Of a stretch of DNA of 64,000 nucleotides, positions 11,577 to 34,517 are shown piece by piece. Both the position numbers and the translations under genes were made by a program. Under the pieces are notes generated by a model. That model saw only the letters and a program-made list of their open reading frames with translations, had not been told where the DNA came from and did no database searches. The stretch's first letter is position 1. The number at the start of each line of letters is the position of its first letter. The DNA comes from Candidatus Daviesbacteria bacterium (GTDB lineage: Bacteria > Patescibacteriota > Microgenomatia > Daviesbacterales > UBA10151), in assembly GCA_016186955.1 (NCBI GenBank), contig JACPKP010000011.1, positions 12,477 through 76,476 of the forward strand, written 5' to 3'.

Positions 11577-12040
11577 AATCTAGGACTACTTTTTTCTCCC
11601 CTTTTATATATTGACGAATTAATAAACCGATTAAAGTTTGATAGGCTATACCATTTCTCTTGGCTTTAGCTTTAACCTTAATCAAATCCTCAGTATTAAC
11701 CCTGAGTGTAATACTTTTTGTTTGTTGTAACTACCTAAAGTTTCTAGCCGCTTCCTGAAACATTTGTTTAGTAACTTCTAGATTAGGGCTATTTTCAAAT
11801 TCGCCCTTTTCTAAAGCATTTTCTAAATCTTTCTCGTATTTATCAAGTATTACTTTCATTTTTGGCGCCTCCTTTCAGATATTTATCAGCCAACACCCTA
11901 CTTGGGTAGACTGTTTTTAAAAAAACTACTTTTCTTTTTTTATCTATTACGTAAGGCGTTGCATACACATATTCTTTTATCTTTATTACTAGTATTTTCT
12001 TCTCTTCAATATAAGTGCCACTTGGCTCCACTGTGTTGAT

Positions 12041-12910
12041 TCATTTAACCCCTATCTTCCATACCCCTTTTTCCCGAAAAGCAGGAATTGTTTGACGTTT
12101 TGCCGCATTTAAAATTACTGGAGCTGGTTTACCAATTTTTACCGCATACTCAGTTGCTTCGATAATTTTATTCCCTTTAAGATAGGCTACTCTTTTATGT
12201 AAAGCCTCCAGCAGCGCAAGCGATATTAACTTGTCCATATTTTTGGTCATTTTATCATCCCTATATTCCTTAAAAGAGTTATAATAGGCTTGCTTTTCTT
12301 TATCACGGATAATTACTCCAGGAAACCCCAATCTATATAGTTGATAATTTATAATAACTCTGCCAATTCTGCCATTGCCATCATTAAAAGGGTGAATTGT
12401 TTCAAATTGCAAGTGAAATTTAGAAATTTTATCTATAAAGTAATCTATATTATCGCTTGAGTATTCAATTAAAGCCTCTTCCAGTAAACGTTCTATATGT
12501 TCTGGAGCAGTAGCAATAAAAGTCCCTATGCGCACATATTCTGTTTTTTTGCGAAATCTCCCGGCAATACTTTCATCAATATTTCCTATTAACATCTGGT
12601 GAAGGAGTAATACAATCTCTTTAGAAAGCTCTCCAGCTTTATCACGGATATATTCCATGACCCGAGCCAAATTCTTAGCTTCAAAAACTTCACGCAGGCT
12701 GACATTTTTAGATACCTCCATCTCTAAGAGTATCTTCTCTGTTTCTTTTAAAGTTAAAGTAGAATTTTCTATAGCATTTGAGTTATAAACACTCTCGGGA
12801 ATTTCAGCTTCATCAATAATTTTAAGCAGAGACTCTTTGCCTGTCTTAAGATGATCATATTCTTTTTTAAGGATTTCTATCCTTTTTTGAAGGGGAAGCG
12901 AGGTTGACAT
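12041..12910 (-). CDS. Fic/Doc family protein (AMPylase-type)
   Basis: Canonical Fic motif HPFNDGNGRIGR. Confidence 0.75.
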   Translation of the reverse strand: MSTSLPLQKRIEILKKEYDHLKTGKESLLKIIDEAEIPESVYNSNAIENSTLTLKETEKILLEMEVSKNVSLREVFEAKNLARVMEYIRDKAGELSKEIVLLLHQMLIGNIDESIAGRFRKKTEYVRIGTFIATAPEHIERLLEEALIEYSSDNIDYFIDKISKFHLQFETIHPFNDGNGRIGRVIINYQLYRLGFPGVIIRDKEKQAYYNSFKEYRDDKMTKNMDKLISLALLEALHKRVAYLKGNKIIEATEYAVKIGKPAPVILNAAKRQTIPAFREKGVWKIGVK

Positions 12911-13858: not shown

Positions 13859-14575
13859 ATGAACAGTCAACAAAAAACTTTATTGATTATTAGCTTCGTA
13901 TTAGCTTTTGTAATTCCCATTTATGGATTAAGCCAATCATTAGCAGCTGGGTCATATGGTCAAACAAGACTTCCAGGGTTTACAGTATTTGTACTTGAAG
14001 CTGCCCTATTAGCAGCTACGGTTTTTGTTTATAAAATCCTGAAGGAACATCCAAACCTAAAAAGAAGCCTAATTACAGCTTTGATTGTTTTTATTACTCC
14101 TTTTATAGTTGGTGGATTATGTTTTTGGGGTTATGTTTCTTGGGCTAGCCATCAATATACCCCTTCTAACTTTGTCGCCGATCCAGCACCTCTAAAACCT
14201 GGTAAGGATATCTATCAGGTGGCAGAAGATATACCTTATGGTTACATGACATTAAGAATTGAGGCTGTAAAACGGCTGAGCACCAACATGATTGAGGTGG
14301 ATTTATATGAATATAACTCAAAGGACAATCCAAATAAACTGCAAATGTTTAATTCTCAATATTATTTAGAGGCACCAGACAAAACCAGAATAGAGCCAAA
14401 TTTTGATAATGGTGGTTTAAGAGGGGTTGATGTAGAACCAGATGAGGCAAAAAGAGGTAGAGTACTATTCCAAAATGATGCTTTGAAAGCGAATACACCT
14501 TTTATACTAAAGGTTCTACCATTTGAGGGGTCTCCTGCTCTTTCAGTGGATATTAGTAAGTATCTAGTTCAATAA
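13859..14575 (+). CDS. Membrane protein with C-terminal extracytoplasmic beta domain (DUF4352-like?)
   Basis: Three N-terminal TM helices, then a soluble domain. First gene inside the element. Confidence 0.4.
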   Translation: MNSQQKTLLIISFVLAFVIPIYGLSQSLAAGSYGQTRLPGFTVFVLEAALLAATVFVYKILKEHPNLKRSLITALIVFITPFIVGGLCFWGYVSWASHQYTPSNFVADPAPLKPGKDIYQVAEDIPYGYMTLRIEAVKRLSTNMIEVDLYEYNSKDNPNKLQMFNSQYYLEAPDKTRIEPNFDNGGLRGVDVEPDEAKRGRVLFQNDALKANTPFILKVLPFEGSPALSVDISKYLVQ

Positions 14576-14584: not shown

Positions 14585-15391
14585 TTACTGCTTCTTTTTC
14601 CCTCCAACACCTTTAATCTCAGTCAGGGTTTTATCAGCATCTTCCATAACTTTTCTCATAGAGTCGGCTTCTTTGCTCTGAAGAAAGTTGTCTCTTGTAA
14701 GTATTCTTAACGGTGTCTCTTTAGATACCACAAACGAACGTCCAGGCTCAGGAAAAAGTTTAGTACCCACCTTTATGTAGACTATATAACCTGCACCTAT
14801 ATAAAAACGGTAGGCATTCAAACCTGCGAACATATCAGTATCATACTCAGGGTGAGGATCAGCCATAAATGACTGTCCAATATCATCAGGAAACCTCGCA
14901 ATGATAAAAGAGAAGTTATTATCACCCCCTGAGTCATTATTCAATATATTTTGTCTAGCTCTTTCTAATTCTTCCTGGCTAAGATTTATTTTCCCAAATT
15001 GAGGTAACTGGCTTGCTCCTGCCCTCCATAACACTGAGATAACAAAAAGTTTTAATTTTTCATAATCAAATTGAGCTATTTCCCACCCTTTTAAATCACC
15101 ATTAACTATTATCTGCCTGTGGTGGTCTTCGTTTTGAAGAAGTAACCTAGGGGAATAATTATCATAAGGAGCAAATCTATTTTCGCACTCCGCACAAACC
15201 AGATCGGAATCGTACCACCCTATTCTCACCTTGCCTATTGGAAATTGATCCTTTGTATTAGTAATCAATTTCATCGATTGGGTTTTGGTCATTTTTGCTT
15301 TGCGCCTTGAGTACTCAAAATAAGCTCTTGGAAGAACATGAGCATTAGCTAATTTCACTACCTTCTCTTTGCAGAACTTACAGGTTTTCAT
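14585..15391 (-). CDS. Hypothetical protein with N-terminal HNH-like Cys/His motif
   Basis: N-terminal CKFCKEK...AHVLP resembles an HNH/zinc-ribbon nuclease signature. Remainder unrecognised. Confidence 0.35.
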   Translation of the reverse strand: MKTCKFCKEKVVKLANAHVLPRAYFEYSRRKAKMTKTQSMKLITNTKDQFPIGKVRIGWYDSDLVCAECENRFAPYDNYSPRLLLQNEDHHRQIIVNGDLKGWEIAQFDYEKLKLFVISVLWRAGASQLPQFGKINLSQEELERARQNILNNDSGGDNNFSFIIARFPDDIGQSFMADPHPEYDTDMFAGLNAYRFYIGAGYIVYIKVGTKLFPEPGRSFVVSKETPLRILTRDNFLQSKEADSMRKVMEDADKTLTEIKGVGGKKKQ

Positions 15392-15460
15392 AACCCCAAA
15401 ATTTTACCATTAAGGCTGGTATAATAACTAAAGTGACTGCCCTAAAAGAAGTAATGACTT

Positions 15461-16459
15461 ATGATAAAACGAGATGCAAATGGCAAATGGACGGCTTCTA
15501 ATGTCCCCAAGGATGTTAACCCTGTGTATGCAAGGGCTTTAGTAGATTTTTTTAATTCTCTTGACCCTCTCTTCACTAAAGCACAAGAGAAATCTGATTT
15601 TGAGTTTATTTTTGCGTTACTCAATGTTCAAGGAATGCAAGATGCTGGATGGGATGCTTTTGAAACTACCAAAGATATTTTTGAGACTTTTAATAAACTG
15701 AAGTCAAAAATTAAATACAATGATGAACAGCTACACCTTTTTTTAGTTTTATACGGCTTAATACTAGAAGCATCCTATCCATATGACCTTCTCTATAACT
15801 TGCTAAGAATAATTTCAGGCGAAAGATATTCAGTTATTTGCTTCCCAGACATAAAAATGGGTAGTAGTGGCAAGACCAGACCAATGTTTGCATCAGAAAA
15901 AATTAACAAAATAAAAGAACTGGCAAAAAAATTAGGTCTGGAATTAAATATACAACCTCTTGTGAACATTTTTGATAAAGAATTGCGAAATGCTATCTTC
16001 CATTCAGATTATTGCCTTTACGATAACGAATTACGACTACCAAAGTCTTCAACTATCTATAAAGTGGATAATGTAATGGCAATACTAAATAAAACAGTTG
16101 CTTATTACGAGGTGATTGTCAGGCTGGTAAAAATGTATAAGGCATCATATGAGAGACCTGAACTAATTGACCCTCCCCCTAGTTTTAATGCTGACCCAGA
16201 AGAAAAAATGGTAGTAATGGTGCGTAAAGGCACAGGAGCCATTGGAATTAAGAGTAATTGGACACAGGAGGAAATTGCTCAGGGAAAGATATCGTTCAGT
16301 ATAAGCCGCTTATTGCCCTACGAACAAAGAATGCTTCAAAAAGACCCTACGCTAGTTGAGTTCCCAGAAAACAAAGTTGAGAAATGGAATAAATTTTTGC
16401 ATATGTTCCCTGTACCAATAAGAAAACATCTCTTACCTATAACAGAACGGTTCTTGTAG
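15461..16459 (+). CDS. HEPN-motif protein, Abi_2 (AbiD/AbiF)-like abortive-infection candidate
   Basis: Contains ELRNAIFHSDY, a match to the Rx4-6H/RNxxxH HEPN motif conserved in AbiD/AbiF-like proteins. Size about 330 aa. Confidence 0.4.
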   Translation: MIKRDANGKWTASNVPKDVNPVYARALVDFFNSLDPLFTKAQEKSDFEFIFALLNVQGMQDAGWDAFETTKDIFETFNKLKSKIKYNDEQLHLFLVLYGLILEASYPYDLLYNLLRIISGERYSVICFPDIKMGSSGKTRPMFASEKINKIKELAKKLGLELNIQPLVNIFDKELRNAIFHSDYCLYDNELRLPKSSTIYKVDNVMAILNKTVAYYEVIVRLVKMYKASYERPELIDPPPSFNADPEEKMVVMVRKGTGAIGIKSNWTQEEIAQGKISFSISRLLPYEQRMLQKDPTLVEFPENKVEKWNKFLHMFPVPIRKHLLPITERFL

Positions 16460-16477
16460 CCTGTTTTTAAAAATGTA

Positions 16478-17209
16478 ATGAATAAGATTAAATCATCAGA
16501 CACAAAAATAACAATTGGTCAGTTAAGCAAGCTCACGGCTGAAGAGCGAACCAAAGTATTAGAACCAATTGTGAAAGCTAACGCAGAACAATTTACCAAA
16601 ATTGCCAGCGCTATAGGTGAAGCCTCTAATTTTGCTAAGACTATTAGCTCTATTGCCAGCTCTTTTAGGCTTCCGATGATTGATATGTTAGAAAACATCA
16701 AGCTCCCAGAACTACCCCAAATTCCTGATGTATACAGTTCTATTGATACTAAGGGAATGAGCTTTGAAAGATATGATCCACCAGTAGTAATTAAAAAATC
16801 AAAGTGGGAAATAGAAAAAGAAGCACGAGAGGCTTATAGAACAGAACTTCAAATTCAAGTGCTGGAACAACAACTGAATCTTTATAAAGGAATGCTCGCA
16901 CCTCAATATGATATAAATACTGGCACTATTACCTTTCTAGGTAAACAGATACAAATACCTCTAAATACAAATTTGGAAATGATCTGTCGCATTGTTCTTA
17001 AAAACTTAACCAATATGAAACGTAAGTGGTCGTGGGAGGAAATTATTGAAGAAAACAGAGAAAGCACTGATAATTTCACCTCAAGACAAATATATACGGC
17101 AGTCAGGTCAATCAATGATAAAGTTGCCGTAGAAACACAAGCAAAAGACCTACTTATTTCAAAACCCTACTCAACCGTTCAGGTAAACCCCAAATACCTG
17201 GCTAAATAG
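16478..17209 (+). CDS. Hypothetical protein (element cargo)
   Basis: ORF only; partly coiled-coil. Confidence 0.35.
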   Translation: MNKIKSSDTKITIGQLSKLTAEERTKVLEPIVKANAEQFTKIASAIGEASNFAKTISSIASSFRLPMIDMLENIKLPELPQIPDVYSSIDTKGMSFERYDPPVVIKKSKWEIEKEAREAYRTELQIQVLEQQLNLYKGMLAPQYDINTGTITFLGKQIQIPLNTNLEMICRIVLKNLTNMKRKWSWEEIIEENRESTDNFTSRQIYTAVRSINDKVAVETQAKDLLISKPYSTVQVNPKYLAK

Positions 17210-17556
17210 TTAGCTACATTTAGCTACTATCCCCTTTGATAAGCTCTGTTCATTATGAAACAAAGTAATGAGCAGCTAAAAATGAGCTTGGAAAAACTCT
17301 ATGGTCGCACCTTGACCACACAGGAACTTTTTTCTATCAAATACAACCTCGTAGGCTTCTTTGAAACCTTAATTAAGTTAGATAAACAGATGCAGAAAGG
17401 AGCACTTTATGGGAGCTCGTGAAGAAATGCAAAAAGAATATGAGCAGAACCTAGACAATCTCTTTGTTGAGGATTTTAAAGACTTGCTGATGAGTCTTTA
17501 TAAAAAACACCTAAGTTTAAATATAAAAAGAGGTATAGCAGCAAAAAGGAGAAAAA

Positions 17557-17826
17557 ATGCTCAAAGTAAGTGAGGTTCAGATAAGAGTCATTAAGCCCAA
17601 GGATGGGCTCGTAGGCTTTGCTAGCTGTGTCTTAGATGGTGTCCTCTACCTAAGTTCTATTGGCATATTTAGCAGACTGGATGGGACTGGCTACAGAATA
17701 ACTTTCCCAACTAAAAAAGTTGGCGATACTGACCTACAAATCTTTCATCCAATTAGCAGAGAGCTCGGTCAAGAAATAGAACAGGCAATTATTGATAAAG
17801 CTAGAAAGGTTTTTGAGGCTATATGA
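17557..17826 (+). CDS. spoVG: SpoVG family protein
   Basis: MLKVSEVQIRVIKP...GFASCVLDGVLYLSSIGIF...FPTKK...IFHPISRELGQEIEQAI matches the SpoVG pattern V.IR.I/ASI.FD..F.I..I.V/P...DI.HPI..E.R..I. Confidence 0.6.
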   Translation: MLKVSEVQIRVIKPKDGLVGFASCVLDGVLYLSSIGIFSRLDGTGYRITFPTKKVGDTDLQIFHPISRELGQEIEQAIIDKARKVFEAI

Positions 17827-17873
17827 GCTGAAAATCACTGACAGCTTATGTCGCTGAAGTAATGAGGTAAGTA

Positions 17874-19025
17874 ATGATTGACACAGTAATCCTAACTATG
17901 CAACTAGATAAAACACTTGTTACCGACCCTGATAAGTTCACACCTTCGCTAAGATGGCTTAAAGAAAGCGATAGGGGTTTTGGTGCTCGTTTGTTTACAA
18001 AGTACACTCAAAATATAAATCAAAAGTATGGTTATTACCCTCGTTTGACGGTTACTCCTAGATGGAAAGGGTATCTTGAAATACCTCTGAAAATTGAGTT
18101 TTCAGTCCCTAAATTATTATATGGTAACAACTTGGATGAAGTTAGCGAGGATGACTTTGAAAGAGTAATAGAAGTATTACAAAGCAAGCTAAAAGAAATG
18201 GGTATTAGAGTATTTCCAGAGCAGCTTAGAAATGCTCTGGTTTCCGCTGTGCATTATTCAAAAAATATACCCTTGTCTCATTTTGTTACAGCCTCCTGGG
18301 TAATCAGTGTCCTGAGCAAATTAGATGTAACTAAAAGATTAGAGCTTAACCATAGACATTTTAAGAACCAGGGACACGCTCTCTATTTTGACTGTGGCTC
18401 CTACCAAATAGTTATCTACGACAAACTAAAAGATATAGGTAAAAGTAAGCGGCACGCTGTAGATAAAGAACCTACATCAGAACAGCTAGGATTATTTGAC
18501 TTTATTAAGAAAAATAAGATACCTGCAGAAATTCTTAGAATTGAGATTAGACTTGTTCAGAAAGGAAAACTTAATTCCCTCTTTACCCAATTTGGTTATC
18601 CAGCTAATCCTACTTTTAAACAGATTTTTAATAGTGAAATTGCTAGAAAAGTTCTACACTTTTACTGGGACTTTATTGCTAATGAGAAGAGTTTATTTCT
18701 ACTCAAAGCCACTGACCAGGACACTTTAAAACAAGTAATTGAATTCCAGAGATTGAATAAAAGAAAGTTAAGTACTATTGAAACTTTAGGTATAGCTCAA
18801 ATTATAGAGTATTCTAAGACAAATGGGCTTAGAACATTAAGAGAGTCCCTTAGTAGCTTTTATTCAGACAGAAACTGGTTTAGACAACAAAAGTATTTTG
18901 ATTTAATAGAAAAAATTACTGCAGATAAAAAACCGTATGACTTTGTTACAGATATTGAAAATACCCTTAATACATTGAAGCCATATAGAATTGAGAACGA
19001 CTTAATCAAAGGAGAAGAGTCGTGA
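17874..19025 (+). CDS. Putative replication initiation protein (Rep_trans-like)
   Basis: 383 aa, positioned between a small regulator and the integrase as in phage or ICE replication modules. Family call by architecture only. Confidence 0.3.
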   Translation: MIDTVILTMQLDKTLVTDPDKFTPSLRWLKESDRGFGARLFTKYTQNINQKYGYYPRLTVTPRWKGYLEIPLKIEFSVPKLLYGNNLDEVSEDDFERVIEVLQSKLKEMGIRVFPEQLRNALVSAVHYSKNIPLSHFVTASWVISVLSKLDVTKRLELNHRHFKNQGHALYFDCGSYQIVIYDKLKDIGKSKRHAVDKEPTSEQLGLFDFIKKNKIPAEILRIEIRLVQKGKLNSLFTQFGYPANPTFKQIFNSEIARKVLHFYWDFIANEKSLFLLKATDQDTLKQVIEFQRLNKRKLSTIETLGIAQIIEYSKTNGLRTLRESLSSFYSDRNWFRQQKYFDLIEKITADKKPYDFVTDIENTLNTLKPYRIENDLIKGEES

Positions 19026-19226
19026 TAAAGGGATTTTCAAGGCTTTTGCAAGCCTACCTATATTTTCTAAGGATGGGTTTCTTAATCCTCTTTCAATACC
19101 TGAGATATAGGTTCTATCTAACCCAGTCTCAAAACCTAACTTCTCTTGAGAAAGCCCAATGCTCTTTCTTAATTCAAGAATCCTGGCACCGAACTTTTTC
19201 CTTAGTGGACTTGATTTTGTTACCAT
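19002..19226 (-). CDS. XRE-family HTH transcriptional regulator
   Basis: ILELRKSIGLSQEKLGFETGLDRTYISGIERGLRNPSLENIGRLAKAL is a canonical HTH_3 segment. Confidence 0.65.
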   Translation of the reverse strand: MVTKSSPLRKKFGARILELRKSIGLSQEKLGFETGLDRTYISGIERGLRNPSLENIGRLAKALKIPLSRLFSFD

Positions 19227-19308
19227 CAGCTATCATAATCAGAGATAAGTGGACTATTGGTCTACGGACTATTAGTCACAATCTCTGTCAAAAGGAGGTG
19301 AAAAAGTA

Positions 19309-19992
19309 ATGAAAGAAACAGAAAAAAGTACTTCTAAAATAGGCATTGGTTCTATCTTGAGTTGGGGTTTAGGAGGATTATTAGTAGTTGGTGGTATTAT
19401 TGAGCTTTTTAGCAAGCCAGCGATGGGTATTTTTACTCTCCTTGCAGGTTTGATTATATTTCCACCAGCAGTTAAGTTTATTAAAAACAGAACTCACTTT
19501 GAGCTATCAAAAGCCTTAAAAGTAGTAGCATTTTTAGTCCTGCTCGGTATTGGTGGTGCTCTGGCTGGTACTTCAAGTACTTCCACAGCAAGCACACCTA
19601 GTGCTAGCAACCAACAAAACAAACCTAATAGTGCCTCAAGTAAACCTGAGCCAACAGCGACAAGCGTAAGCAAGCAACCAGATGTACCAACTGAATATAA
19701 ATCTGCTCTCAGCCAAGCTACTTCATATGCCAACACAATGCATATGTCCAAGCAAGGCGTCTATGACCAGCTAGTTTCAGAATATGGTGGTAAGTTTTCG
19801 CCAGCAGCCGCACAGTATGGAATAGACAATGTAAAAGCAGATTGGAACGCTAATGCCCTAGCTAAAGCAAAGAACTATCAAGATTCCATGCATATGTCAC
19901 CAGCTGCCATTCATGACCAGCTAACATCTGCTTATGGGGAAAAGTTCACACAATCAGAGGCAGATTATGCTATTCAGCATCTTAACGACTAA
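19309..19992 (+). CDS. Membrane protein with two Ltp-like (PF07553, phage superinfection-exclusion lipoprotein) repeats
   Basis: Two TM helices and a Ser/Thr/Pro linker, then two roughly 48-aa repeats: YKSALSQATSYANTMHMSKQGVYDQLVSEYGGKFSPAAAQYGIDNV and AKAKNYQDSMHMSPAAIHDQLTSAYGEKFTQSEADYAIQHL. Confidence 0.5.
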   Translation: MKETEKSTSKIGIGSILSWGLGGLLVVGGIIELFSKPAMGIFTLLAGLIIFPPAVKFIKNRTHFELSKALKVVAFLVLLGIGGALAGTSSTSTASTPSASNQQNKPNSASSKPEPTATSVSKQPDVPTEYKSALSQATSYANTMHMSKQGVYDQLVSEYGGKFSPAAAQYGIDNVKADWNANALAKAKNYQDSMHMSPAAIHDQLTSAYGEKFTQSEADYAIQHLND

Positions 19993-20094
19993 TAGTGCTT
20001 ATAAAGTGAGACTATACAAAAGTTGTTCTTTTTAATTCTGGGCAGGAGCAATCCTTCCCAGCCTAAAGAGAAGGTTATACCTAACTATAAAATT

Positions 20095-21609
20095 ATGAAG
20101 GCTCTTGGCATTGCTCGTGTATCAACACCAGAACAAAAAGAAGCAGGAAACTCATTACCTGCTCAGGTAGCTCGTATTGAAAAATACTGTCGTATCAAAA
20201 CCTTTGACCCAGTAGAAACATTCAGCTTTGATGAGACTGCCTATAAAGAGGATAGGGATAAGTTTGACAGCATTCTAGATAGGATTATTGAAGAGAAAGA
20301 TAAGATTGCAGTTTGTTTTGATAAAGTTGACCGCTTATCAAGAAATGTATTTGATAAACGAGTATCTTTATTGTACGAAAAGGCTCTAAGAGATGAGATA
20401 GAGCTTCATTTTGTATCTGATGGTCAAGTAATTAACAGTCAAATATCGGCAGTTGAAAAATTCCAGTTTGGTATCAGCTTAGGCCTTGCTAAATATTACT
20501 CAGATGCCATTAGTGACAATGTAAAAAGAGCAACCGAACAAAAACTACGCAGAGGCGAATGGCCTACTAAAGCACCTATCGGCTACTTAAATATAGACCT
20601 GGAAGATGAAAAGAAATGGATTGAAGTTGACACTCAACGAGCAGATTTGGTTATTAAGATATTTGAATGGTATGCAACCACTGCTTATTCCATGGAAATG
20701 CTTAGAAGGAAAGCTAAAGAAGAAGGGTTAACAAACAATACAGTTTCTGGCACCTATCTAACGAAAAGCCAAATAGAACTTATCCTTAAAAATCCTTTTT
20801 ACTATGGCGAAATGCGATATAGAGACAATATTTACCCTCATAGCTATAAACCACTTATATCAAAAGAGTTGTTTGATAAAGTGCAGCAAGTTAAACAAAA
20901 CTGGCACAAAAAGCCCTTTAAGTACGCTGCTAAGCCATTTATTTATAGAGGTCTACTCTCCTGCTCCAGTTGTGGTTGCAGGATTACTTTTGAAACAGCT
21001 AAAGGCAAATACAATTATGGACACTGTACTAACTATTATAAAAATTGTTCTAATGTAGTTTGGATTAGAGAAGAGGATATAACTGACCAATTTAAAGATT
21101 TATTAAAAGGGTTAACTATAGATAAAGAGGTATTAGAAGAACTGGTTAAAGAACTTAGGGATAACCACACAGCCAAGGTTGAGTATCACGAGCGTACCAT
21201 GTCTAACTTAAAAGCAGAATACGATAAATTGGAAAACCGCTTAACTAAAATGTATGAGGATAAACTAGATGGGAGTATTACAGGCGATAAGTATGACAGC
21301 TTACTCAGTAAGTATAAGGGTATTCAGGCAGACATTCTTTTACAGATGGAAAGACATAGTAAAGCAGATGAGAGTTATTACACTGAAGCGAATAAGTTGC
21401 TAGAGCTTGCCAGTCGTGCTTATGAGATTTTTGAAAGTTCTGAAGCCGATGGTAAAAGGGAACTTTTAAAGTACCTACTTCAGAACTCTGAAATGAAAGG
21501 CAGAAAGGTTATTCCCACGCTCCAAATGCCATTTGATGCTATCCTTCTTGCCAACAAAACAAAAGATTGGCTCCTCGGCCAAGATTCGAACTTGGAACCT
21601 TCTCGTTAA
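20095..21609 (+). CDS. Large serine recombinase (integrase)
   Basis: Start set at MKALGIARVSTPEQ (catalytic Ser) rather than 20023. Has a resolvase N-domain, recombinase domain and zinc ribbon CSSCGCRITF...HCTNYYKNC. The ORF's C-terminal about 40 nt run into the tRNA-Asn 3' end, so the true stop is uncertain. Confidence 0.75.
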   Translation: MKALGIARVSTPEQKEAGNSLPAQVARIEKYCRIKTFDPVETFSFDETAYKEDRDKFDSILDRIIEEKDKIAVCFDKVDRLSRNVFDKRVSLLYEKALRDEIELHFVSDGQVINSQISAVEKFQFGISLGLAKYYSDAISDNVKRATEQKLRRGEWPTKAPIGYLNIDLEDEKKWIEVDTQRADLVIKIFEWYATTAYSMEMLRRKAKEEGLTNNTVSGTYLTKSQIELILKNPFYYGEMRYRDNIYPHSYKPLISKELFDKVQQVKQNWHKKPFKYAAKPFIYRGLLSCSSCGCRITFETAKGKYNYGHCTNYYKNCSNVVWIREEDITDQFKDLLKGLTIDKEVLEELVKELRDNHTAKVEYHERTMSNLKAEYDKLENRLTKMYEDKLDGSITGDKYDSLLSKYKGIQADILLQMERHSKADESYYTEANKLLELASRAYEIFESSEADGKRELLKYLLQNSEMKGRKVIPTLQMPFDAILLANKTKDWLLGQDSNLEPSR

Positions 21610-21642
21610 CAGCGAGCCGCTCTACCATTGAGCTACCGAGGA
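21568..21642 (-). tRNA. tRNA-Asn (anticodon GTT)
   Basis: The reverse-complement folds as a cloverleaf: acceptor TCCTCGG/CCGAGGA, anticodon loop CTGTTAA, T-loop TTCGAAT, encoded CCA. Confidence 0.8.
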
Positions 21643-25918: not shown

Positions 25919-26010
25919 GGAGGGGTCGCATAGTGGTCTAGTGCGCTTGCTTGGAAAGCAGGTGTCCGATGAACATCGGACCGTGGGTTCAAATCCCACC
26001 CCCTCCGCCA
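25919..26010 (+). tRNA. tRNA-Ser (anticodon GGA)
   Basis: GGAGGGGTCGCATAGTGG...; anticodon loop TTGGAAA; long variable arm TGTCCGATGAACATCGGAC; T-loop TTCAAAT; acceptor CCCCTCC-G-CCA. Confidence 0.8.
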
Positions 26011-26013
26011 AGT

Positions 26014-26625
26014 TCAGATTTCAGAATTCGAATTTCGGACATCAGATATTAAAAGCAGGTATTCCCTGTTTCCTCCGCTTCCCAAAATCGGTGACTCAAT
26101 AGAATTAACAATATTGAATGATAAATTATGAATTTTATCTTTAACACTGTTTACAACCTCTTCCAATTCCTCATCTTTTACAACTCCTTTTACTCTTTGC
26201 TGTTCAAAAGCCTCATATTGGGGCTTAAGTAAGGCAATAATGATTCCGTCTTTTTTCAAAAACTTTCTCACAACCGGAAGCACTAATTCCAACTTAGTCC
26301 ACCCCGCATCAATGGTAATAAGATCCACTTTATCCACCTCGCCACCATCTAAGGTGTTTTCAGACCCACCCTCCAGGTGAGGCAAATGCAATATGTTTGT
26401 GCGTTCCATCACCACCACCCTGGGATCATTCCTCAGCTTCCATGCCAACTCACCATAAGAGGTATCCACTGAATAAATTTTTGCTGCCCCATTTTGCAAA
26501 AGACAGTCCACAAACCCGCCAGTTGAAGACCCAACATCCAAACAACTGAAATTTTTAATTTTTAATTTGAAATTTTCAATTGCATGCTGGAGTTTAATCC
26601 CACCGCGGGAAACAAATTGATTCAT
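26014..26625 (-). CDS. tlyA: TlyA-family rRNA 2'-O-methyltransferase (FtsJ fold, no S4 domain)
   Basis: VSRGGIKLQHAIENF and SAM motif CLDVGSSTGGFVDCLLQNGAAKIYSVD. Confidence 0.6.
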   Translation of the reverse strand: MNQFVSRGGIKLQHAIENFKLKIKNFSCLDVGSSTGGFVDCLLQNGAAKIYSVDTSYGELAWKLRNDPRVVVMERTNILHLPHLEGGSENTLDGGEVDKVDLITIDAGWTKLELVLPVVRKFLKKDGIIIALLKPQYEAFEQQRVKGVVKDEELEEVVNSVKDKIHNLSFNIVNSIESPILGSGGNREYLLLISDVRNSNSEI

Positions 26626-26713
26626 AATCTTAAAACGAAAATCGTAAAACTCAAATCTACATTTAAAAATTTAAAGTTTGAAAGATTTTAAATTTTAGAT
26701 GTAATTTTGACAT

Positions 26714-27139
26714 TTAGGATTTGAGATTTAACATTTTTAAGGCTTTTTCTAAAAGTTTCTTGTCATTTTGGAAACTGAGCATTTTCATGGCTTCCTTGGG
26801 CTCAACCCATTTTGCATCAAGAAGTTCTGAAGGCTGGTGTTTCAACTCACCACCCGTATATTTCATCAAGTAAATAATCACAATCTTAAAAATCCTTTCT
26901 TCGCCTTTGCCAAAGACATATTTTGAATCCCCAACCTTATCCACTATCTCCACTTCTACCCCGGTTTCCTCGCTTACTTCCCTTAAGGCTGCTTCTTTAC
27001 TTGATTCTTTACCCTCAATATGGCCTTTGGGAAACCCCCAATATACTGTCCTGGCATCCCTAATGGATGAGTTTTGTATGAGTAAAGCTTCCCCCTTATT
27101 ATTAAACACTATCCCTCCTGCAGAAAATTCTCGCTTCAC
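26714..27139 (-). CDS. NUDIX hydrolase
   Basis: Nudix box GFPKGHIEGKESSKEAALREVSEETGV. Confidence 0.65.
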   Translation of the reverse strand: MKREFSAGGIVFNNKGEALLIQNSSIRDARTVYWGFPKGHIEGKESSKEAALREVSEETGVEVEIVDKVGDSKYVFGKGEERIFKIVIIYLMKYTGGELKHQPSELLDAKWVEPKEAMKMLSFQNDKKLLEKALKMLNLKS

Positions 27140-27390
27140 CTATAAATATCCTTTCTATGGTCAACAATATGAATAACCAAATTTTTGTCCTCTACATCAA
27201 AAGCTACACGATAATTACCTATTCTAAATCTATACTTTCCCATCTGTATATTATTTAAGGTTTCTGCAAATTCAATAGGGTTTTGCTGGCTGCAAAAAAA
27301 ATCCAGTTTCTCAATAATTCTTTGTTGGATTTCTTTTGGTAATTTTCTGAAGTGCTTAAATGAAGATTTGGTAAATTGATAATCAAACAT
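27136..27390 (-). CDS. RelE/ParE-family toxin
   Basis: 84 aa, basic, ...YRVAFDVEDKNLVIHIVDHRKDIYR C-terminus typical of RelE/ParE. Overlaps the upstream antitoxin by 4 nt. Confidence 0.5.
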   Translation of the reverse strand: MFDYQFTKSSFKHFRKLPKEIQQRIIEKLDFFCSQQNPIEFAETLNNIQMGKYRFRIGNYRVAFDVEDKNLVIHIVDHRKDIYR

Positions 27391-27675
27391 TTATACTAAA
27401 CCTAACATTTTTTTAACCTGAACGGATGAATAACGGACTTTATCTGCTCTTGATTTCGCAATTCTTTTTAAATAATTTTCAGAAGATAAAGCTTCTAAAT
27501 CTTCCAGGAAAGATTCCCAAACATTATCAGGGACCAGTACACCTAAAGGTTTATTATTGCGCATTACCCTAATAAACTTACCTTTTTTTTCTGCAGTTTT
27601 AAAGATTTTAGTCAAACCTGCCTGGGCTTTTTGGACGCTGGTGAATTCTTCATCGTTAATCAGTTGTCTTTGCAT
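27391..27675 (-). CDS. Antitoxin (Phd/YefM-like)
   Basis: Small acidic protein immediately upstream of the toxin, on the same strand. Confidence 0.4.
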   Translation of the reverse strand: MQRQLINDEEFTSVQKAQAGLTKIFKTAEKKGKFIRVMRNNKPLGVLVPDNVWESFLEDLEALSSENYLKRIAKSRADKVRYSSVQVKKMLGLV

Positions 27676-27728
27676 ATGTAATAATTATTACAGAATTATG
27701 ACAGATTGTCAACACTGCGCAAAACTTT

Positions 27729-27800
27729 GCGCCCCCGGCGGGAATCGAACCCACATATCAGGATCCGGAATCCTGTGGTCTATCCGTTAGCCTACGGGGG
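27729..27800 (-). tRNA. tRNA-Arg (anticodon CCG)
   Basis: Reverse-complement GCCCCCGTAGGCTAACGGATAGACCACAGGATTCCGGATCCTGATATGTGGGTTCGATTCCCGCCGGGGGCG; anticodon loop TTCCGGA; no encoded CCA. Confidence 0.75.
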
Positions 27801-27950
27801 CATCCAATGCTCTAAGATAACAAAGTCTGTTATTAAAACAACGATTTTAATAACAAGCGACGTTATCGCAAACTTTGTTTATCCATTAAGCTACAGGTGC
27901 AAAACGAAATCCTGCGGTCTAAAATATCGTAGTGTTTTTGTATTTTACCA

Positions 27951-28235
27951 TCAAGGATAGACTTTTATATGCCCGCCGATTGCTAAAAAGCTTACCGTAT
28001 TTTTACCTGCTATCTTGTAAACAATTCTTACATCATCATTGATACTAAAAGCCCACAAACCTTTCATTTTTTTTCTAAGAGGATGGTTGTGTAATCTTGT
28101 ATCGTCTGGGTTCCGCTCAAACAACCTGACTTTCTCATTAATAACTGCTTCAAGACCCGGAGATTCTTTTAGTAGGGTCTTTAAAAATGGGACGTAGTCT
28201 CTGGCATATTTAATCTTAACCATGCTTCTGCTCAC
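27951..28235 (-). CDS. RelE/YoeB-like toxin
   Basis: 94 aa; overlaps the RHH partner. RelE-like ...DDVRIVYKIAGKNTVSFLAIGGHIKVY C-terminus. Confidence 0.45.
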   Translation of the reverse strand: MSRSMVKIKYARDYVPFLKTLLKESPGLEAVINEKVRLFERNPDDTRLHNHPLRKKMKGLWAFSINDDVRIVYKIAGKNTVSFLAIGGHIKVYP

Positions 28236-28506
28236 GATGGTTCTTTAAAGGATAGTTCATCACAAACTGAGAGAAAGGCGTTTTGCCATCCCACTCGATA
28301 TATTCCTGGTTGGAATCATTGGCTATTTGTAGCACTTCTTCTTCAAACTCTGAGGTGAATCCATTTTCAGTCAATTCGGGGTACAAAAACCGCCGCAAAG
28401 CATCACGAAAGAGCTCACTGATTGATGTATAACCCTTACCGGCTACCGCTTTCTTAGCGTCGGCATGGAGAGATTTTGGGAGTGAGATGTTAATCGTAGT
28501 TGTCAT
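28216..28506 (-). CDS. RHH/ParD-like antitoxin
   Basis: INISLPKSLHADAKKAVAGKGYTSISELFRDALRRF is RHH-like. Confidence 0.45.
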   Translation of the reverse strand: MTTTINISLPKSLHADAKKAVAGKGYTSISELFRDALRRFLYPELTENGFTSEFEEEVLQIANDSNQEYIEWDGKTPFSQFVMNYPLKNHREQKHG

Positions 28507-28558
28507 AGTATCATTGTATGGTTTTCATACAAACTTTGTCAACTATTACTATCTCCTG

Positions 28559-28645
28559 CGGTGGGGGTGGGATTTGAACCCACGAAGGACTTTCGCCCTT
28601 TCCGGTTTTCGAAACCAGTGCACTCGGCCACTATGCGACCCCACC
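28559..28645 (-). tRNA. tRNA-Ser (anticodon CGA)
   Basis: Reverse-complement GGTGGGGTCGCATAGTGGCCGAGT...; anticodon loop TTCGAAA; long variable arm; T-loop TTCAAAT. Confidence 0.75.
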
Positions 28646-28654
28646 ATGTGCACC

Positions 28655-28765
28655 CCCGAAAGGATAATATACCCACCGACTAAAGTCGGTGAGCGAACCT
28701 TCGAGGATAGCGCGCCCGGCGGGACAACATACCACTCGCCTCCGGCGAGTAGCGAACCTGCCAGG
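28655..28765. repeat. Duplicated tRNA-Arg 3'-end fragment plus two hairpin-agcgaacct units
   Basis: gcacccccgaaaggat at 28654-28669 repeats the tRNA-Arg 3' end at 28766-28781. Between the copies: ccaccgactaaagtcggtgagcgaaccttcgagg and ccactcgcctccggcgagtagcgaacctgccagg (hairpin followed by agcgaacct, twice). Confidence 0.55.
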
Positions 28766-28839
28766 CACCCCCGAAAGGATTCGAACCTTCGACCTCAACG
28801 TCCGCAACGTTGCGCTCTAATCCACTGAGCTACGGGGGT
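28766..28839 (-). tRNA. tRNA-Arg (anticodon GCG as read)
   Basis: Reverse-complement ACCCCCGTAGCTCAGTGGATTAGAGCGCAACGTTGCGGACGTTGAGGTCGAAGGTTCGAATCCTTTCGGGGGTG; anticodon loop TTGCGGA. GCG is an unusual Arg anticodon, so the isoacceptor call is tentative. Confidence 0.6.
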
Positions 28840-28899
28840 ACTGTGTGTATTTTACCTTATTGACTTATAAAAATCATAAGTTTAATATCTTAAATTGTA

Positions 28900-29220
28900 A
28901 TGTCTCCTGAACAGAGGGAAATAGTAGGTAAACCATTTGAGGAGGTTTGCGGAATTAAAGATATTTTTGTTGAAAAATATTTGCGACCATTCTTTTATGA
29001 TTATGAATACCCCTTGAATGGTGCAGGAGTTGGCCTGTCTAACTACAATAGGGGCCGTGCACGCTTTGTGATAAGTGTTAATACCCTCCAAAAACCTACC
29101 TCAGAATTTTTAAAGTCTCTAAGTTTACCAAGGAAATCATTCAAAGGAGTGCCTGTAAAATACCAACTTTTTGCTGGGTTTAGGGCTGCCGCGGACAGCA
29201 GAAACCAACTGTTTGAATGA
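28900..29220 (+). CDS. Hypothetical protein
   Basis: ORF only. Confidence 0.2.
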   Translation: MSPEQREIVGKPFEEVCGIKDIFVEKYLRPFFYDYEYPLNGAGVGLSNYNRGRARFVISVNTLQKPTSEFLKSLSLPRKSFKGVPVKYQLFAGFRAAADSRNQLFE

Positions 29221-29353
29221 GCAAAGAAAATTTAGATCCGAACAGGGCATATTTTGAGTAGAGTCACAGCTTTGGATAACGGACCTGTGTATAGCTATGG
29301 TGGACCGGAAGAAGAGTTCTATCCAAAGGGCAAAAAACGGTTTTGTTAAGATT

Positions 29354-29995
29354 TCATCTGTGGGGGTTCTCCAGCGGAAAATGTTTCTGCAGGCTGTCTG
29401 ACCATTTTTCCATCATAGTTTTTGGCGCGATCTCATGAAAAGGCAGGTATCTTGCGCAGGTATTCCTGACCTCCTCTTCACTGACATCTGAACCCAAAAC
29501 AAGGATCAACACACCGGGAAAATTTATCCTTGTCAAAACATGTAGGAGTTTATGCCCGTCTTTTTCGGAAAACCAGAAAGAGTCAAGTTCCTGCCAGTGG
29601 TAAAAATGGTCTCCTATGGTAACACCCTGTGTAGATATTTTATAGCCAACATCTTCAGGGGAGATAAAATTTAAAACATAAACCAGAAAACCCAAGGCTA
29701 ATATCGCCCCTACCAGAATCTTTTCCCCTGCTAAAAAGACTATCATTGAGGTTAAAACGATTAATACTGCAACTGTAGTATAAAAAGAGCGGTCTTTTTT
29801 CCTGAATGGCCGGGACGGGGCTTTCCAAGATAGCAGAGTCCTGACAGGATCATAATCAAAAAAAGGGTCGCTTTGCTGAACATCTTCGGCAGGGAGCTCC
29901 TCCGCAGGTTTTATGGGATTTGGGAGTTCCTTTTCAGGGTCAATCGAACTGGGCAACTCCGGTGTAAGCAGGTCTTTTTCGAAATATTCGGGCAT
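29354..29995 (-). CDS. Hypothetical membrane protein (two TM helices)
   Basis: MPEYFEKDLLTPELP... acidic N-terminus, two TM helices. The heptamer repeat begins 8 nt upstream of the start codon. Confidence 0.4.
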   Translation of the reverse strand: MPEYFEKDLLTPELPSSIDPEKELPNPIKPAEELPAEDVQQSDPFFDYDPVRTLLSWKAPSRPFRKKDRSFYTTVAVLIVLTSMIVFLAGEKILVGAILALGFLVYVLNFISPEDVGYKISTQGVTIGDHFYHWQELDSFWFSEKDGHKLLHVLTRINFPGVLILVLGSDVSEEEVRNTCARYLPFHEIAPKTMMEKWSDSLQKHFPLENPHR

Positions 29996-30003
29996 TAGGG
30001 ATA

Positions 30004-30031
30004 GTGTAAAGTGTAAAGTGTAAAGTGTAAA
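30004..30031. repeat. Heptanucleotide tandem repeat (GTGTAAA)x4
   Basis: gtgtaaagtgtaaagtgtaaagtgtaaa, 8 nt upstream of the ATG of 29354..29995 (minus strand). Confidence 0.8.
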
Positions 30032-30040
30032 GTAGTAACC

Positions 30041-30595
30041 CTAACTTAATTGGGCCCTAATAGCGCTGATAATCAGCGGATAATAGTTATGGGGGACGAA
30101 TTTTTTGCTCAAAATAGGATCAGTAACCTCTTTTTCAAACCGGTCAACAGGCTCAAACTTCACCTTCCCCACCTCCCCATCCTTAAAATCCAGTTCTTTC
30201 ACAGCACCGTCAAACTGAAACAAATAAAGATGGTTCAGTTCATTGTTTTGGAACCCTGGTTTACCAGAAATCCTGTATTTCTGTTTTTGGATCTTCACTT
30301 TTTTTAACAGCTTGGGGTCTATTTTTATACCAAGCTCCTCTGATAACTCCCTTATTGCAGCGCCATCAGGGGTTTGCCCTGCAGAAATATGCCCTGCGCA
30401 GGATATATCCCAAAGCCCGGGGTAAACATATAGGTTATCTGCCCGCTTTTGCAGAAGCACTTCACCTTTTTTGTTGTACATCCAGATGTGGACTGTGGCA
30501 TGCCAGGAACCGTCGCTGTGCGCCAGGTTTCTGGATTTCACCCTGCCTGTTTTATTGCCTTTTGCATCAAGGATATCCAAAAGTTCATCAGGCAT
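30041..30595 (-). CDS. NUDIX hydrolase (IPP-isomerase-like subtype)
   Basis: Start set at MPDELLD. Nudix box GLWDISCAGHISAGQTPDGAAIRELSEELGI. Confidence 0.6.
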   Translation of the reverse strand: MPDELLDILDAKGNKTGRVKSRNLAHSDGSWHATVHIWMYNKKGEVLLQKRADNLYVYPGLWDISCAGHISAGQTPDGAAIRELSEELGIKIDPKLLKKVKIQKQKYRISGKPGFQNNELNHLYLFQFDGAVKELDFKDGEVGKVKFEPVDRFEKEVTDPILSKKFVPHNYYPLIISAIRAQLS

Positions 30596-30678
30596 GTTAC
30601 GGTAGTACATTATACCAAGTTTTGCAAACAATATCACATTGTGATATTGACATATGATATAATAGTAAATATAATTCA

Positions 30679-30960
30679 ATGATGCTAAACGCCAATATTG
30701 TGCCCGCCAGAAATCTTCAAAAATCTTACAAATCCATTATTGAAGAAGTAAAGAAAAAAAAGAAGGCAGTGGTTTTAACAACCAATAACCAGCCGCAAGC
30801 CGCCATTGTGAGTCTTGAGGATTTAGAAAAACTACAACAGACTAAAGCACAACAAGGGACTGCTGAAATGCTAAATTTTGTGGAGGAACACAAAGAAGAA
30901 CTGAAAGAACTACCAGCAAATTTACGCGAAATTGCAGATGATATCCTATATAGCAAATGA
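30679..30960 (+). CDS. Phd/YefM-type antitoxin
   Basis: Beta-strand KAVVLTTNNQPQAAIVSLEDLEKLQ typical of Phd/YefM. 4-nt overlap with the PIN gene. Confidence 0.55.
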   Translation: MMLNANIVPARNLQKSYKSIIEEVKKKKKAVVLTTNNQPQAAIVSLEDLEKLQQTKAQQGTAEMLNFVEEHKEELKELPANLREIADDILYSK

Positions 30961-31400
30961 TTAAAAAAGTGGTTATAGATTCTGATGCTATATATGCAAT
31001 TTATAACCATAATGATCCTTTACATAGTAAGGCAATTAAAACTTTACAGCTGTTGAATAAAACCCAAGTTCAATTAATTTATCCTACTTCGGTTATTTTT
31101 GAAGTCATGTCTTTATTCCAAAGAGTTCTCTCAGCACCTTCAGTAACAATAAAGATGGTAGATTTAATTAGCAGAGATCTTTTAATAATCTATGCAATAG
31201 ACAATGAGCTGCTTAAAGAAGCTACGAATATCTTTAAACCAGCTGGAAGTGAGCAAGCTCCTTCCTTCGGAAGTAAAAAGAATACCTTAGTGGATTGCTC
31301 AGTAGTGGCTGTGGCTAAAAAAATAAAAGCAGATGGTGTATTTTCTTATGATGAGTTTTATAAAAAACAAGGTCTAAAATTAGCTGAAGATTTAATTTAG
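30957..31400 (+). CDS. vapC: PIN-domain toxin (VapC), paralog of 2938..3348
   Basis: IKKVVIDSDAIYAIY; C-terminus FSYDEFYKKQGLKLAEDLI resembles 2938..3348 (FSFDKFYKSKGFKLASEL). Confidence 0.65.
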   Translation: MIKKVVIDSDAIYAIYNHNDPLHSKAIKTLQLLNKTQVQLIYPTSVIFEVMSLFQRVLSAPSVTIKMVDLISRDLLIIYAIDNELLKEATNIFKPAGSEQAPSFGSKKNTLVDCSVVAVAKKIKADGVFSYDEFYKKQGLKLAEDLI

Positions 31401-31555
31401 CCTTCTAAATTCTTCCAAAATCTCCCTCGGCGGTACCTGGTTGCCTGCCATCCATAGCTTTAGCAAGGGATGGACTATGTTGGAACCTTTTATCAAATCT
31501 CAACACAGCAAAAGGCCTTTGTTAACACATTAATTGTACGATAAAATTAGTTTTA

Positions 31556-32065: not shown

Positions 32066-32223
32066 AAAAGTTTTGGTTGGAACCTGTTAAAAACTGCCTT
32101 TTTAGGCACAAATTGATGATATTGATAAAAAATGCCCTAAAAAATGATTGGGTTGGTTGGAACTTACCCTTAAGGGAAATATAGCCTGGTAAAACTGACT
32201 AGCTAAGGTTATTGTTAATCTTT

Positions 32224-32460: not shown

Positions 32461-32464
32461 ATCA

Positions 32465-32820: not shown

Positions 32821-32915
32821 GGATGTCAGATGTCAAAAATCGGATTTCGGATCAGTACAATTTTATCCGATTTATCCGAGATCTGATTTCCGATATCCGA
32901 AATCCGAACTTGGCG

Positions 32916-33199
<284 letters not shown>

Positions 33200-33232
33200 A
33201 GACAGGCTTAATTGTATCAAAACATTGTACTG

Positions 33233-34443: not shown

Positions 34444-34517
34444 CGATAATCCCATACTTTGAGTATGGGATTTTTGAAGATTGACATTTCCCAAATAAAA
34501 AAGTATATTCCCTAACA

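What the first reader, a model, noticed from the sequence alone, without database searches (positions are those of the whole stretch)
14585..17209. Candidate two- or three-gene defense module inside the element: HNH-like protein, HEPN/Abi_2-like protein and a coiled-coil partner
ORF 15461..16459 carries ELRNAIFHSDY, matching the HEPN Rx4-6H motif of AbiD/AbiF-type abortive-infection RNases. It is divergently paired with ORF 14585..15391, whose N-terminus (CKFCKEK...AHVLP) resembles an HNH/zinc-ribbon nuclease. It is followed 18 nt later by a 243-aa coiled-coil ORF. Divergent pairing of two putative nucleases inside a mobile element is the typical signature of a compact anti-phage system. None of the three proteins matched a named system from memory.
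Basis: inference. Interest (0 to 1): 0.6.

Follow-up and report, generated by a model that had tools for sequence, protein, structure and literature searches.

The report
Stand-alone HEPN-like gene, not a trio
The three neighbouring genes are real but are not one system. The middle gene founds an unnamed, widely scattered family that looks like a stand-alone HEPN-type RNA-cutting enzyme. It rides as swappable cargo at the head of a small integrated mobile element in a Candidatus Daviesbacteria genome.

The parts
15461..16459 (+). ORF2, 332 aa. Founding member of an unnamed HEPN-like family and the core of the finding. It has a helical core (about residues 20-230) and a C-terminal alpha/beta domain (about 240-332).
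15986..16012 (+). Codons for RNAIFHSDY (R176-Y184), the predicted HEPN Rx4H active-site motif, with N after the R.
   Evidence: Invariant R176, N177, F180, H181, D183. Kept in 111 of 113 relatives and in phage and plasmid relatives.
15392..15460 (.). 69-nt divergent intergenic region. It holds an extended -10 element TGGTATAAT (15417-15425, + strand) and the ORF2 translation-initiation region AAGTAATGAC.
   Evidence: Sequence. The TATAAT/TATGAT positions are conserved upstream of ORF2 in L001, L006 and L017, and upstream of ORF3 in L014, which lacks ORF2. The simple -35/-10 scan did not report it.
14585..15391 (-). ORF1, 268 aa. Member of a large independent family with an N-terminal HNH_5-like CxxC...H...CxxC domain (about residues 1-80) and an uncharacterised C-terminal domain. 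Probably a separate cargo gene.
16478..17209 (+). ORF3, 243 aa. First gene of the conserved element backbone, with a strongly conserved C-terminal domain. Not a specific partner of ORF2.
   Evidence: 67 homologs and alignment. It is always followed by small ORFs, SpoVG, a Rep-like gene and a serine recombinase, with or without ORF2 upstream.
17255..21642 (.). Rest of the element backbone. It comprises two small ORFs (17255-17573), a SpoVG-like gene (17557-17826), a Rep-like 383-aa gene (17874-19025), an HTH_3 gene (19002-19226, -), an Ltp lipoprotein gene (19309-19992) and a large serine recombinase gene (20023-21609). The 3' end of the recombinase gene overlaps tRNA-Asn (21568-21642, -).
   Evidence: Pfam hits. 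tRNA. Synteny with L005, L014 and L017.

Best explanation
ORF2 most likely encodes a stand-alone, metal-independent RNase of the HEPN superfamily, in a sequence family not yet named. It is carried as a single-gene cargo cassette at the head of the main operon of an integrated element in a Candidatus Daviesbacteria genome. That element is roughly 8 kb by my estimate (left end not mapped) and is inserted at tRNA-Asn by a serine recombinase.

Shown:
- An invariant RNxxxHxD motif plus invariant W64, E103, Y108 and R192.
- A confident all-alpha core whose best structural matches are HEPN domains.
- No conserved partner gene.
- Cassette-like presence or absence between the backbone promoter and ORF3.
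- Sparse, phylum-hopping distribution on integrative elements, plasmids, a phage, and next to known defence genes.

Inferred, by analogy with AbiD/AbiF, ApeA, RnlA, Csm6 and HEPN toxins:
- The protein dimerises to build a composite R...H active site.
- It is held inactive by its own extra domains. The C-terminal alpha/beta domain is the candidate sensor.
- On phage infection or another trigger it cleaves cellular or phage RNA, stopping growth (abortive infection).

ORF1 is a separate HNH_5-like, probably DNA-targeting, cargo gene of a large family. ORF3 is an element backbone gene. The left arm of this element family is a swap site for such cargo: ORF1, Ymh-HEPN, an SLFN/AlbA_2-like 483-aa gene plus Shedu, or a 280-aa unknown.
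For: Motif and conservation.

Fold:
- Model pLDDT 90.3.
- The roughly 130-residue minimal HEPN chains align over more than 90% of their own length.

The motif form (N after R, upstream conserved acid E103) fits the superfamily definition in PMC3710099.

Stand-alone status:
- No neighbour cluster occurs in more than 4 of 113 loci.
- The upstream gene is on the opposite strand in 39 of 85 loci.
- Pooled neighbours hit no family more than 3 times in 149 proteins.

Cassette behaviour:
- L014 has the 483-aa gene, promoter and ORF3.
- L017 has the same gene (split), the same promoter, then ORF2 and ORF3.
- blastn breakpoints fall at the ORF2 RBS and stop codon.

Conflict contexts:
- AbiU2 plus a type III R-M system (L008).
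- An Avs/NACHT-like giant protein (L009).
- HEPN_Swt1 and an integrase (L002).
- DUF1156, AIPR, SNF2/NOV_C, Abi_C, DUF4238 and TIR (L020).
- KAP NTPase and TIR on an Agrobacterium plasmid.
- A moron position in a Microcystis phage.
- Shedu in the same left-arm region of L014.

Distribution: 41 of about 185,000 species representatives, across many phyla.
Against: - Nothing links the family to any HEPN family by sequence. Pfam, NCBIfam, PADLOC and PHROGs give nothing. The PDB profile search gives nothing. hhalign against neighbouring Ymh, Swt1 and AbiU2 proteins is insignificant.
- Foldseek against the PDB finds nothing significant.
- I could not see coordinates, so I did not verify that R176 and H181 superpose on the HEPN catalytic residues.
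- Many immediate neighbours are ordinary metabolic genes, and I computed no background-corrected defence score.
- No antitoxin or regulator is evident, so how toxicity would be restrained is conjecture.
- There is no experimental data of any kind.
Confidence: 0.55

Rival explanations
1. ORF1 and ORF2 form a two-gene system, an HNH-like DNase plus a HEPN-like RNase expressed from a shared divergent promoter. This is the core of the first reader's proposal.
For: - A 1.86-kb block holding exactly ORF1, the intergenic region and ORF2 (window 14607-16462) is 84% identical to L001. The flanking DNA is unrelated, and the two serine recombinases are only 26% identical, so the pair moved or was kept as a unit at least once.
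- PMC3710099 notes that Abi2-type HEPN genes sometimes neighbour ParB/HNH DNases.
Against: - ORF1-family genes are present in only 2 of 75 non-redundant ORF2 loci with at least 1 kb upstream. Those two are close relatives, so this is effectively one event.
- ORF1 relatives in Collierbacteria and in a farmland contig have no ORF2 nearby.
- The ORF1 family has about 4,900 representatives, against a few hundred ORF2 relatives.
- In sister elements the divergent position is taken by unrelated genes.
Confidence: 0.1
2. All three genes (ORF1, ORF2, ORF3) form one defence module, with ORF3 as a coiled-coil partner.
For: ORF3 starts 18 nt after ORF2 with no terminator between them. The ORF2-ORF3 order recurs in L005, L017-19, L023, L065 and L066.
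Against: - ORF3 occurs without ORF2, behind the same promoter, in L014-L016.
- ORF3 is always followed by the same backbone genes: small ORFs, SpoVG, Rep-like, recombinase.
- ORF2 lacks ORF3 in L001, L006 and 81 of 84 non-redundant loci.
- The full trio was seen only in the window itself.
Confidence: 0.03
3. ORF2 serves the mobile element rather than the host. It could be an addiction or stabilisation toxin, an exclusion factor against competing elements, or an RNA-processing regulator of the backbone operon it heads.
For: It is the first gene of the backbone operon, behind the promoter that drives ORF3 in elements without ORF2. It is often found on integrative elements, plasmids and a phage.
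Against: - No cognate antitoxin or conserved small neighbour exists.
- Many relatives sit in chromosomal contexts with no visible element genes.
- Backbone elements do without it, so it is not needed for the element's life cycle.
- Exclusion of rivals and phage defence are hard to tell apart by sequence.
Confidence: 0.2
4. ORF2 is not a HEPN RNase at all. It would be an unrelated helical protein or enzyme whose conserved R, N, H and D residues serve another chemistry, and the HEPN resemblance is a helical-bundle coincidence.
Against: - The HEPN-specific form R-N-x3-H has a 0.9% chance expectation and is invariant across the whole family.
- HEPN families are known to be undetectable from each other by sequence outside the motif (PMC3710099).
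Confidence: 0.15

Closest known systems
Single-gene HEPN abortive-infection proteins: AbiD/AbiD1/AbiF (Pfam Abi_2, PF07751), AbiU2, AbiJ, AbiV, and ApeA (the last recalled from memory)
   Same: It has one protein with a single Rx4H-type HEPN motif with a polar residue after R, no obligate partner, and carriage on mobile elements and near R-M or other defence genes. The predicted mode is RNA cleavage leading to growth arrest (PMC3710099).
   Different: There is no sequence match to any of these families in Pfam or PADLOC. The architecture differs, with a long N-terminal helical extension bearing an invariant GW/E103/Y108 set and a family-specific C-terminal alpha/beta domain. No phenotype is known.
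Minimal HEPN toxins of HEPN-MNT toxin-antitoxin pairs (SO_3166, PDB 5yep; 7ae2; 8xdj; HI0074, 1jog)
   Different: Those toxins are about 130 aa and always sit beside an MNT nucleotidyltransferase antitoxin that AMPylates them. ORF2 is 332 aa, with extra domains and no MNT or any conserved neighbour.
Csm6/Csx1 HEPN effector domains of type III CRISPR
   Different: ORF2 has no CARF domain, no CRISPR context and no sequence similarity.
HNH_5 (PF14279) and McrA-type HNH endonucleases (for ORF1)

Membership tests
HEPN superfamily (Pfam clan KNTase_C; defined in PMC3710099) | Conserved Rx4-6H motif, with a polar residue (N/D/H) right after the R | tested here: met
   R176-N177-A-I-F-H181 is invariant in A1. 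It is present in 111 of 113 relatives and in phage and plasmid relatives. Definition taken.
HEPN superfamily (Pfam clan KNTase_C; defined in PMC3710099) | All-alpha HEPN core fold | tested here: inconclusive
HEPN superfamily (Pfam clan KNTase_C; defined in PMC3710099) | Second conserved acidic residue upstream of the motif (typically Ex3[KR]) | tested here: inconclusive
   An invariant E103 lies upstream. Its context is E-A-S-x-P-Y, not Ex3[KR].
HEPN superfamily (Pfam clan KNTase_C; defined in PMC3710099) | Motif residues sit at the canonical active-site position, forming a composite site on dimerisation | not testable with these tools
No multimer prediction is available.
HEPN superfamily (Pfam clan KNTase_C; defined in PMC3710099) | Metal-independent RNase activity | not testable with these tools
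   Needs biochemistry.
   ORF2 gives no Pfam hit at E<=1 apart from GH113 noise. None of 35 relatives hits Abi_2 or any HEPN Pfam model. PADLOC, which holds Abi models, gives no hit.
HEPN-MNT type II/VII toxin-antitoxin | Adjacent MNT nucleotidyltransferase antitoxin gene | tested here: not met
   No recurrent neighbour was found. No NTase family appears among the top families for 149 pooled neighbours.
HNH endonucleases (HNH_5, PF14279), for ORF1 | Match to the family profile above the gathering threshold | tested here: not met
   ORF1 itself has no hit. 13 of 49 relatives hit HNH_5 only at E>=0.0042.
HNH endonucleases (HNH_5, PF14279), for ORF1 | beta-beta-alpha-metal core with a catalytic His and a Cys4 zinc site | tested here: inconclusive
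Multi-gene anti-phage system (the trio or the pair as a unit) | Component genes co-occur as a conserved unit across unrelated genomes | tested here: not met
   ORF1-family genes are present in 2 of 75 ORF2 loci and ORF3-family genes in 3 of 84. The maximum for any neighbour cluster is 4 of 113 loci.
Anti-phage defence gene (any kind) | Enrichment next to known defence genes, and protection in a phage challenge | tested here: inconclusive
   Defence genes are nearby in L002, L008, L009, L020 and the Agrobacterium plasmid, and Shedu occupies the same left-arm region in L014. Pooled immediate neighbours are mixed and no background control was run. The phage challenge is not testable here.

The most novel reading that the evidence does not exclude
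ORF2 would define a new, self-contained sensor-effector immunity protein: a HEPN RNase fused to a previously unseen C-terminal sensing domain. It would be one of the first defence families recognised from mobile elements of CRISPR-poor CPR bacteria. The left arm of this family of small serine-recombinase elements would be a dedicated hotspot where single-gene defences are exchanged, such as ORF2, the HNH_5-like ORF1, Ymh and Shedu. The exchange may run through the ~20-nt leader sequence that is duplicated in front of ORF2 and ORF3.
Probability: 0.3. Interest if true: 0.55.

Novelty: new variant of a known kind. Interest (0 to 1): 0.4.

Why it matters
CPR/Patescibacteria largely lack CRISPR-Cas (title of PMC4742961, listed), and their antiviral repertoire is poorly charted. 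If ORF2 is confirmed, three things follow:
- It would add a compact single-gene effector family, about 300-330 aa, to the HEPN repertoire. This family is invisible to current annotation libraries (Pfam, NCBIfam, PADLOC, PHROGs).
- It has a clear mutational target (R176/H181) and relatives in culturable hosts: Desulfosporosinus meridiei, Litchfieldella, Marinicella and Agrobacterium plasmids.
- The element family gives a small, well-delimited cargo slot that could be mined for further unknown defence genes in CPR genomes.

The practical lesson for the scan is that gene adjacency inside a mobile element is not evidence of a multi-gene system.

Tried and rejected
- Abi_2/AbiD/AbiF membership is rejected. 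No profile hit for ORF2 or 35 relatives.
- ORF3 as a partner is rejected. It is a backbone gene, present without ORF2.
- The 280-aa divergent gene in L006 is not an ORF1 relative (18% identity, noise).
- The 246-aa genes near ORF2 in L001 and L002 are not ORF3 relatives (tblastn negative).
- A fast-evolving small antitoxin next to ORF2 was looked for. Tightly coupled small ORFs are rare, dissimilar and mostly look spurious.
- Sequence links to HEPN gave nothing. I tried a PDB profile search and hhalign against Ymh, Swt1 and AbiU2 neighbours.
- Foldseek against the PDB for ORF2 found nothing significant.
- PDB profile searches for ORF1 and ORF3 gave nothing.
- IMG/VR viral contigs had no relatives of ORF2 or ORF3.
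- Phage records had no match for ORF1, ORF3 or the Rep-like protein.
- The consensus promoter scan does not exceed the shuffled expectation and misses the extended -10 element.
- Literature searches found no description of this family or of the element.
Full report
**Observation**

ORF1 is 14585-15391 (-), 268 aa. ORF2 is 15461-16459 (+), 332 aa. ORF3 is 16478-17209 (+), 243 aa. ORF1 and ORF2 are divergent with 69 nt between them, and 18 nt separate ORF2 from ORF3. RNAIFHSDY is encoded at 15986-16012. ORF1 begins MKTCKFCKEK...AHVLP, and its only four cysteines are C4, C7, C66 and C69. Exact matches to ORF1 and ORF3 carry Candidatus Daviesbacteria locus tags HYW46_06520 and HYW46_06530, so the window is from a CPR/Patescibacteria MAG.

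The genes lie in a small integrated element. Downstream are a SpoVG-like gene, a Rep-like 383-aa gene, an HTH gene, an Ltp lipoprotein gene and a large serine recombinase gene. The 3' end of the recombinase gene overlaps tRNA-Asn.

**ORF2**

No model in Pfam, NCBIfam, PADLOC or PHROGs matches ORF2. None of 35 relatives matches any HEPN-type Pfam family, so it is not an Abi_2/AbiD/AbiF protein. The word-indexed search found only 54 relatives, all unnamed.

The specific R-N-x3-H form appears in 0.9% of shuffles. Conservation is the real evidence:
- R176, N177, F180, H181 and D183 are invariant across an alignment reaching 33% identity, as are W64, E103, Y108 and R192.
- R[NHQDS]xxxHx[DE] is present in 111 of 113 non-redundant relatives from genome and metagenome scans. 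The two exceptions are truncated.
- The same residues persist in 23-26% identical relatives in Microcystis phage Mwe-Yong1 and an Agrobacterium plasmid.

This is the form that defines catalytically active HEPN domains: a polar N after the R and an upstream conserved acid (PMC3710099).

**ORF1**

The word-indexed search found only 10 relatives. A full profile search found 4,912 cluster representatives at E<=1e-3, so this is a large family of its own.
- H18 is invariant, and C4, C7, P21, C66, C69 and D77 are conserved at >=90%.
- 13 of 49 relatives give sub-threshold HNH_5 hits.
- One relative is named an HNH_5 domain protein in UniRef.
- The C-terminal ~190 residues match no solved fold.

**ORF3**

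ORF3 has 67 relatives of about 237 aa, nearly all from Patescibacteria. The N-terminal half is variable and the C-terminal ~100 residues are very conserved. In every long contig it is followed by the same genes: small ORFs, SpoVG, a Rep-like gene, HTH_17, sometimes a type IIG methyltransferase, and a serine recombinase. It is the first gene of the element backbone.

**Is the trio a unit? No.**

- L001 (ORF2 87% identical) has ORF1 but not ORF3.
- L005 and L017-19 have ORF2 and ORF3 but not ORF1.
- L014-16 have ORF3 without ORF2.
- L006 has ORF2 with an unrelated 280-aa divergent gene.
- ORF1 relatives in Collierbacteria and elsewhere have no ORF2 nearby.
- Distant ORF2 relatives have entirely different neighbours.

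The systematic survey covered 113 non-redundant ORF2 loci. ORF1-family genes occur in 2 of 75 loci with enough upstream sequence, and ORF3-family genes in 3 of 84. No neighbour cluster occurs in more than 4 loci. The upstream gene is on the opposite strand in 39 of 85 loci, and no recurrent small coupled ORF exists. Pooled neighbours (149 proteins) hit no Pfam or PADLOC family more than three times.

**Cassette behaviour**

In L014 a 483-aa gene faces ORF3 across a 67-nt promoter region. In L017 the same gene (split, 87-94% identical) faces ORF2 across the same region, and ORF3 follows 27 nt after ORF2. ORF2 is therefore a clean one-gene difference between the backbone promoter and ORF3. That promoter carries a conserved extended -10 element, TGGTATAAT at 15417-15425 in the window. 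A ~20-nt leader, GAAAATGTAATGAnCTATG, is repeated before both start codons.

blastn breakpoints agree with this. Similarity to L005, L006 and L017 begins 10-15 nt before the ORF2 ATG. Similarity to L001 covers exactly ORF1 plus ORF2 (14607-16462, 84%) and nothing else, although both elements sit at tRNA-Asn and their recombinases are only 26% identical. That shared block is the one piece of evidence for an ORF1-ORF2 link. It represents a single event among close relatives.

**What ORF2 probably does**

The family is rare, found in 41 of about 185,000 species representatives. It is scattered across CPR, Firmicutes, Actinobacteria, Acidobacteria, Proteobacteria, Planctomycetes and others, which is the pattern of a horizontally mobile accessory gene. 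It is found in these settings:
- On serine-recombinase or tyrosine-integrase elements.
- On plasmids.
- In a phage moron position.
- Beside AbiU2 plus type III R-M, an Avs-like NACHT protein, HEPN_Swt1, and AIPR/Abi_C/TIR/DUF1156/SNF2, KAP NTPase and TIR.

In sister elements the same left-arm region carries Shedu, a weak SLFN/AlbA_2-like gene or a Ymh HEPN gene.

The best reading is a stand-alone HEPN RNase that acts as an abortive-infection-type or inter-element conflict effector, self-regulated by its extra domains. Dimerisation, the trigger and the RNA target are inferred by analogy only. Immediate neighbours also include ordinary metabolic genes, and I ran no background control. The defence role is therefore held at roughly even odds.

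**Novelty and verdict**

The family is not in any library searched, and I found no paper describing it. In kind it is one more HEPN family with a new architecture, so I rate it a new variant of a known kind.

Noticed in passing
window 15443-15463 and 16465-16485; L017 5950-5977 and 6975-7003: A ~20-nt leader (GAAAATGTAATGAnCTATG) is present directly upstream of both the ORF2 and ORF3 start codons. It matches about 20 of 22 nt in L017 and about 12 of 15 nt in the window. Remnants follow the ORF2 stop in L006, which has no ORF3. It may mark how the cassette was inserted or exchanged.
   Followed up: partly
window 20023-21642; L001 12319-13882; L006 5125-6901: The 3' end of the serine recombinase gene overlaps tRNA-Asn on the opposite strand in both the window and L001, although the two recombinases are only 26% identical. 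In L006 a third serine recombinase abuts tRNA-Val. Different recombinases seem to use tRNA genes as targets in these CPR genomes.
   Followed up: partly
window 12041-12910 (-), with a small ORF at 11843-12031 (-): A Fic/DOC-family protein about 1.7 kb left of ORF1 matches PADLOC candidate defence models PDC-S04 (4e-35) and SoFic (2.4e-27). It may belong to the same island or to an adjacent one.
   Followed up: no
L014 4082-6933 (-); L017 4455-5907 (-): In a sister element the region upstream of ORF3 carries a Shedu SduA-like gene plus a 483-aa gene with a weak SLFN/AlbA_2 hit. In L017 that 483-aa gene is split into 201- and 291-aa ORFs, apparently a pseudogene. This fits a defence-cargo hotspot.
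   Followed up: partly
window 16478-19025: The element backbone (ORF3, two small ORFs, a SpoVG-like gene, a 383-aa protein with only a weak Rep_trans hit at E 0.04) is conserved in several Patescibacteria contigs. It has no match in phage records or IMG/VR, so the element type is undetermined. It could be an integrative plasmid-like element or a satellite.
   Followed up: partly
L144 3827-4777 (Microcystis phage Mwe-Yong1, MZ436628.1 15529-16479): A 316-aa hypothetical protein sits in the opposite orientation between tail genes and a Dam methylase. It is a distant ORF2 relative that keeps the RNxxxHxD core but lacks the C-terminal domain.
   Followed up: partly
window 13859-14575 (+): A 238-aa predicted membrane protein, by my reading of its hydrophobic N-terminal half, lies convergent with ORF1. 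It has no family assignment and no relative in the sister elements, so it is probably further cargo.
   Followed up: no
window 25919-34444: There is a cluster of six further tRNA genes (Ser x4, Arg x2) and a tmRNA gene (34077-34444) downstream of the element.
   Followed up: no
L023 (contig CAYRUR010000001.1): A MAG labelled 'uncultured Gammaproteobacteria' carries an ORF2 homolog 76% identical to the window's, followed by an ORF3 homolog, which is the CPR-type arrangement. This suggests mis-binning, mis-labelling or recent transfer.
   Followed up: no
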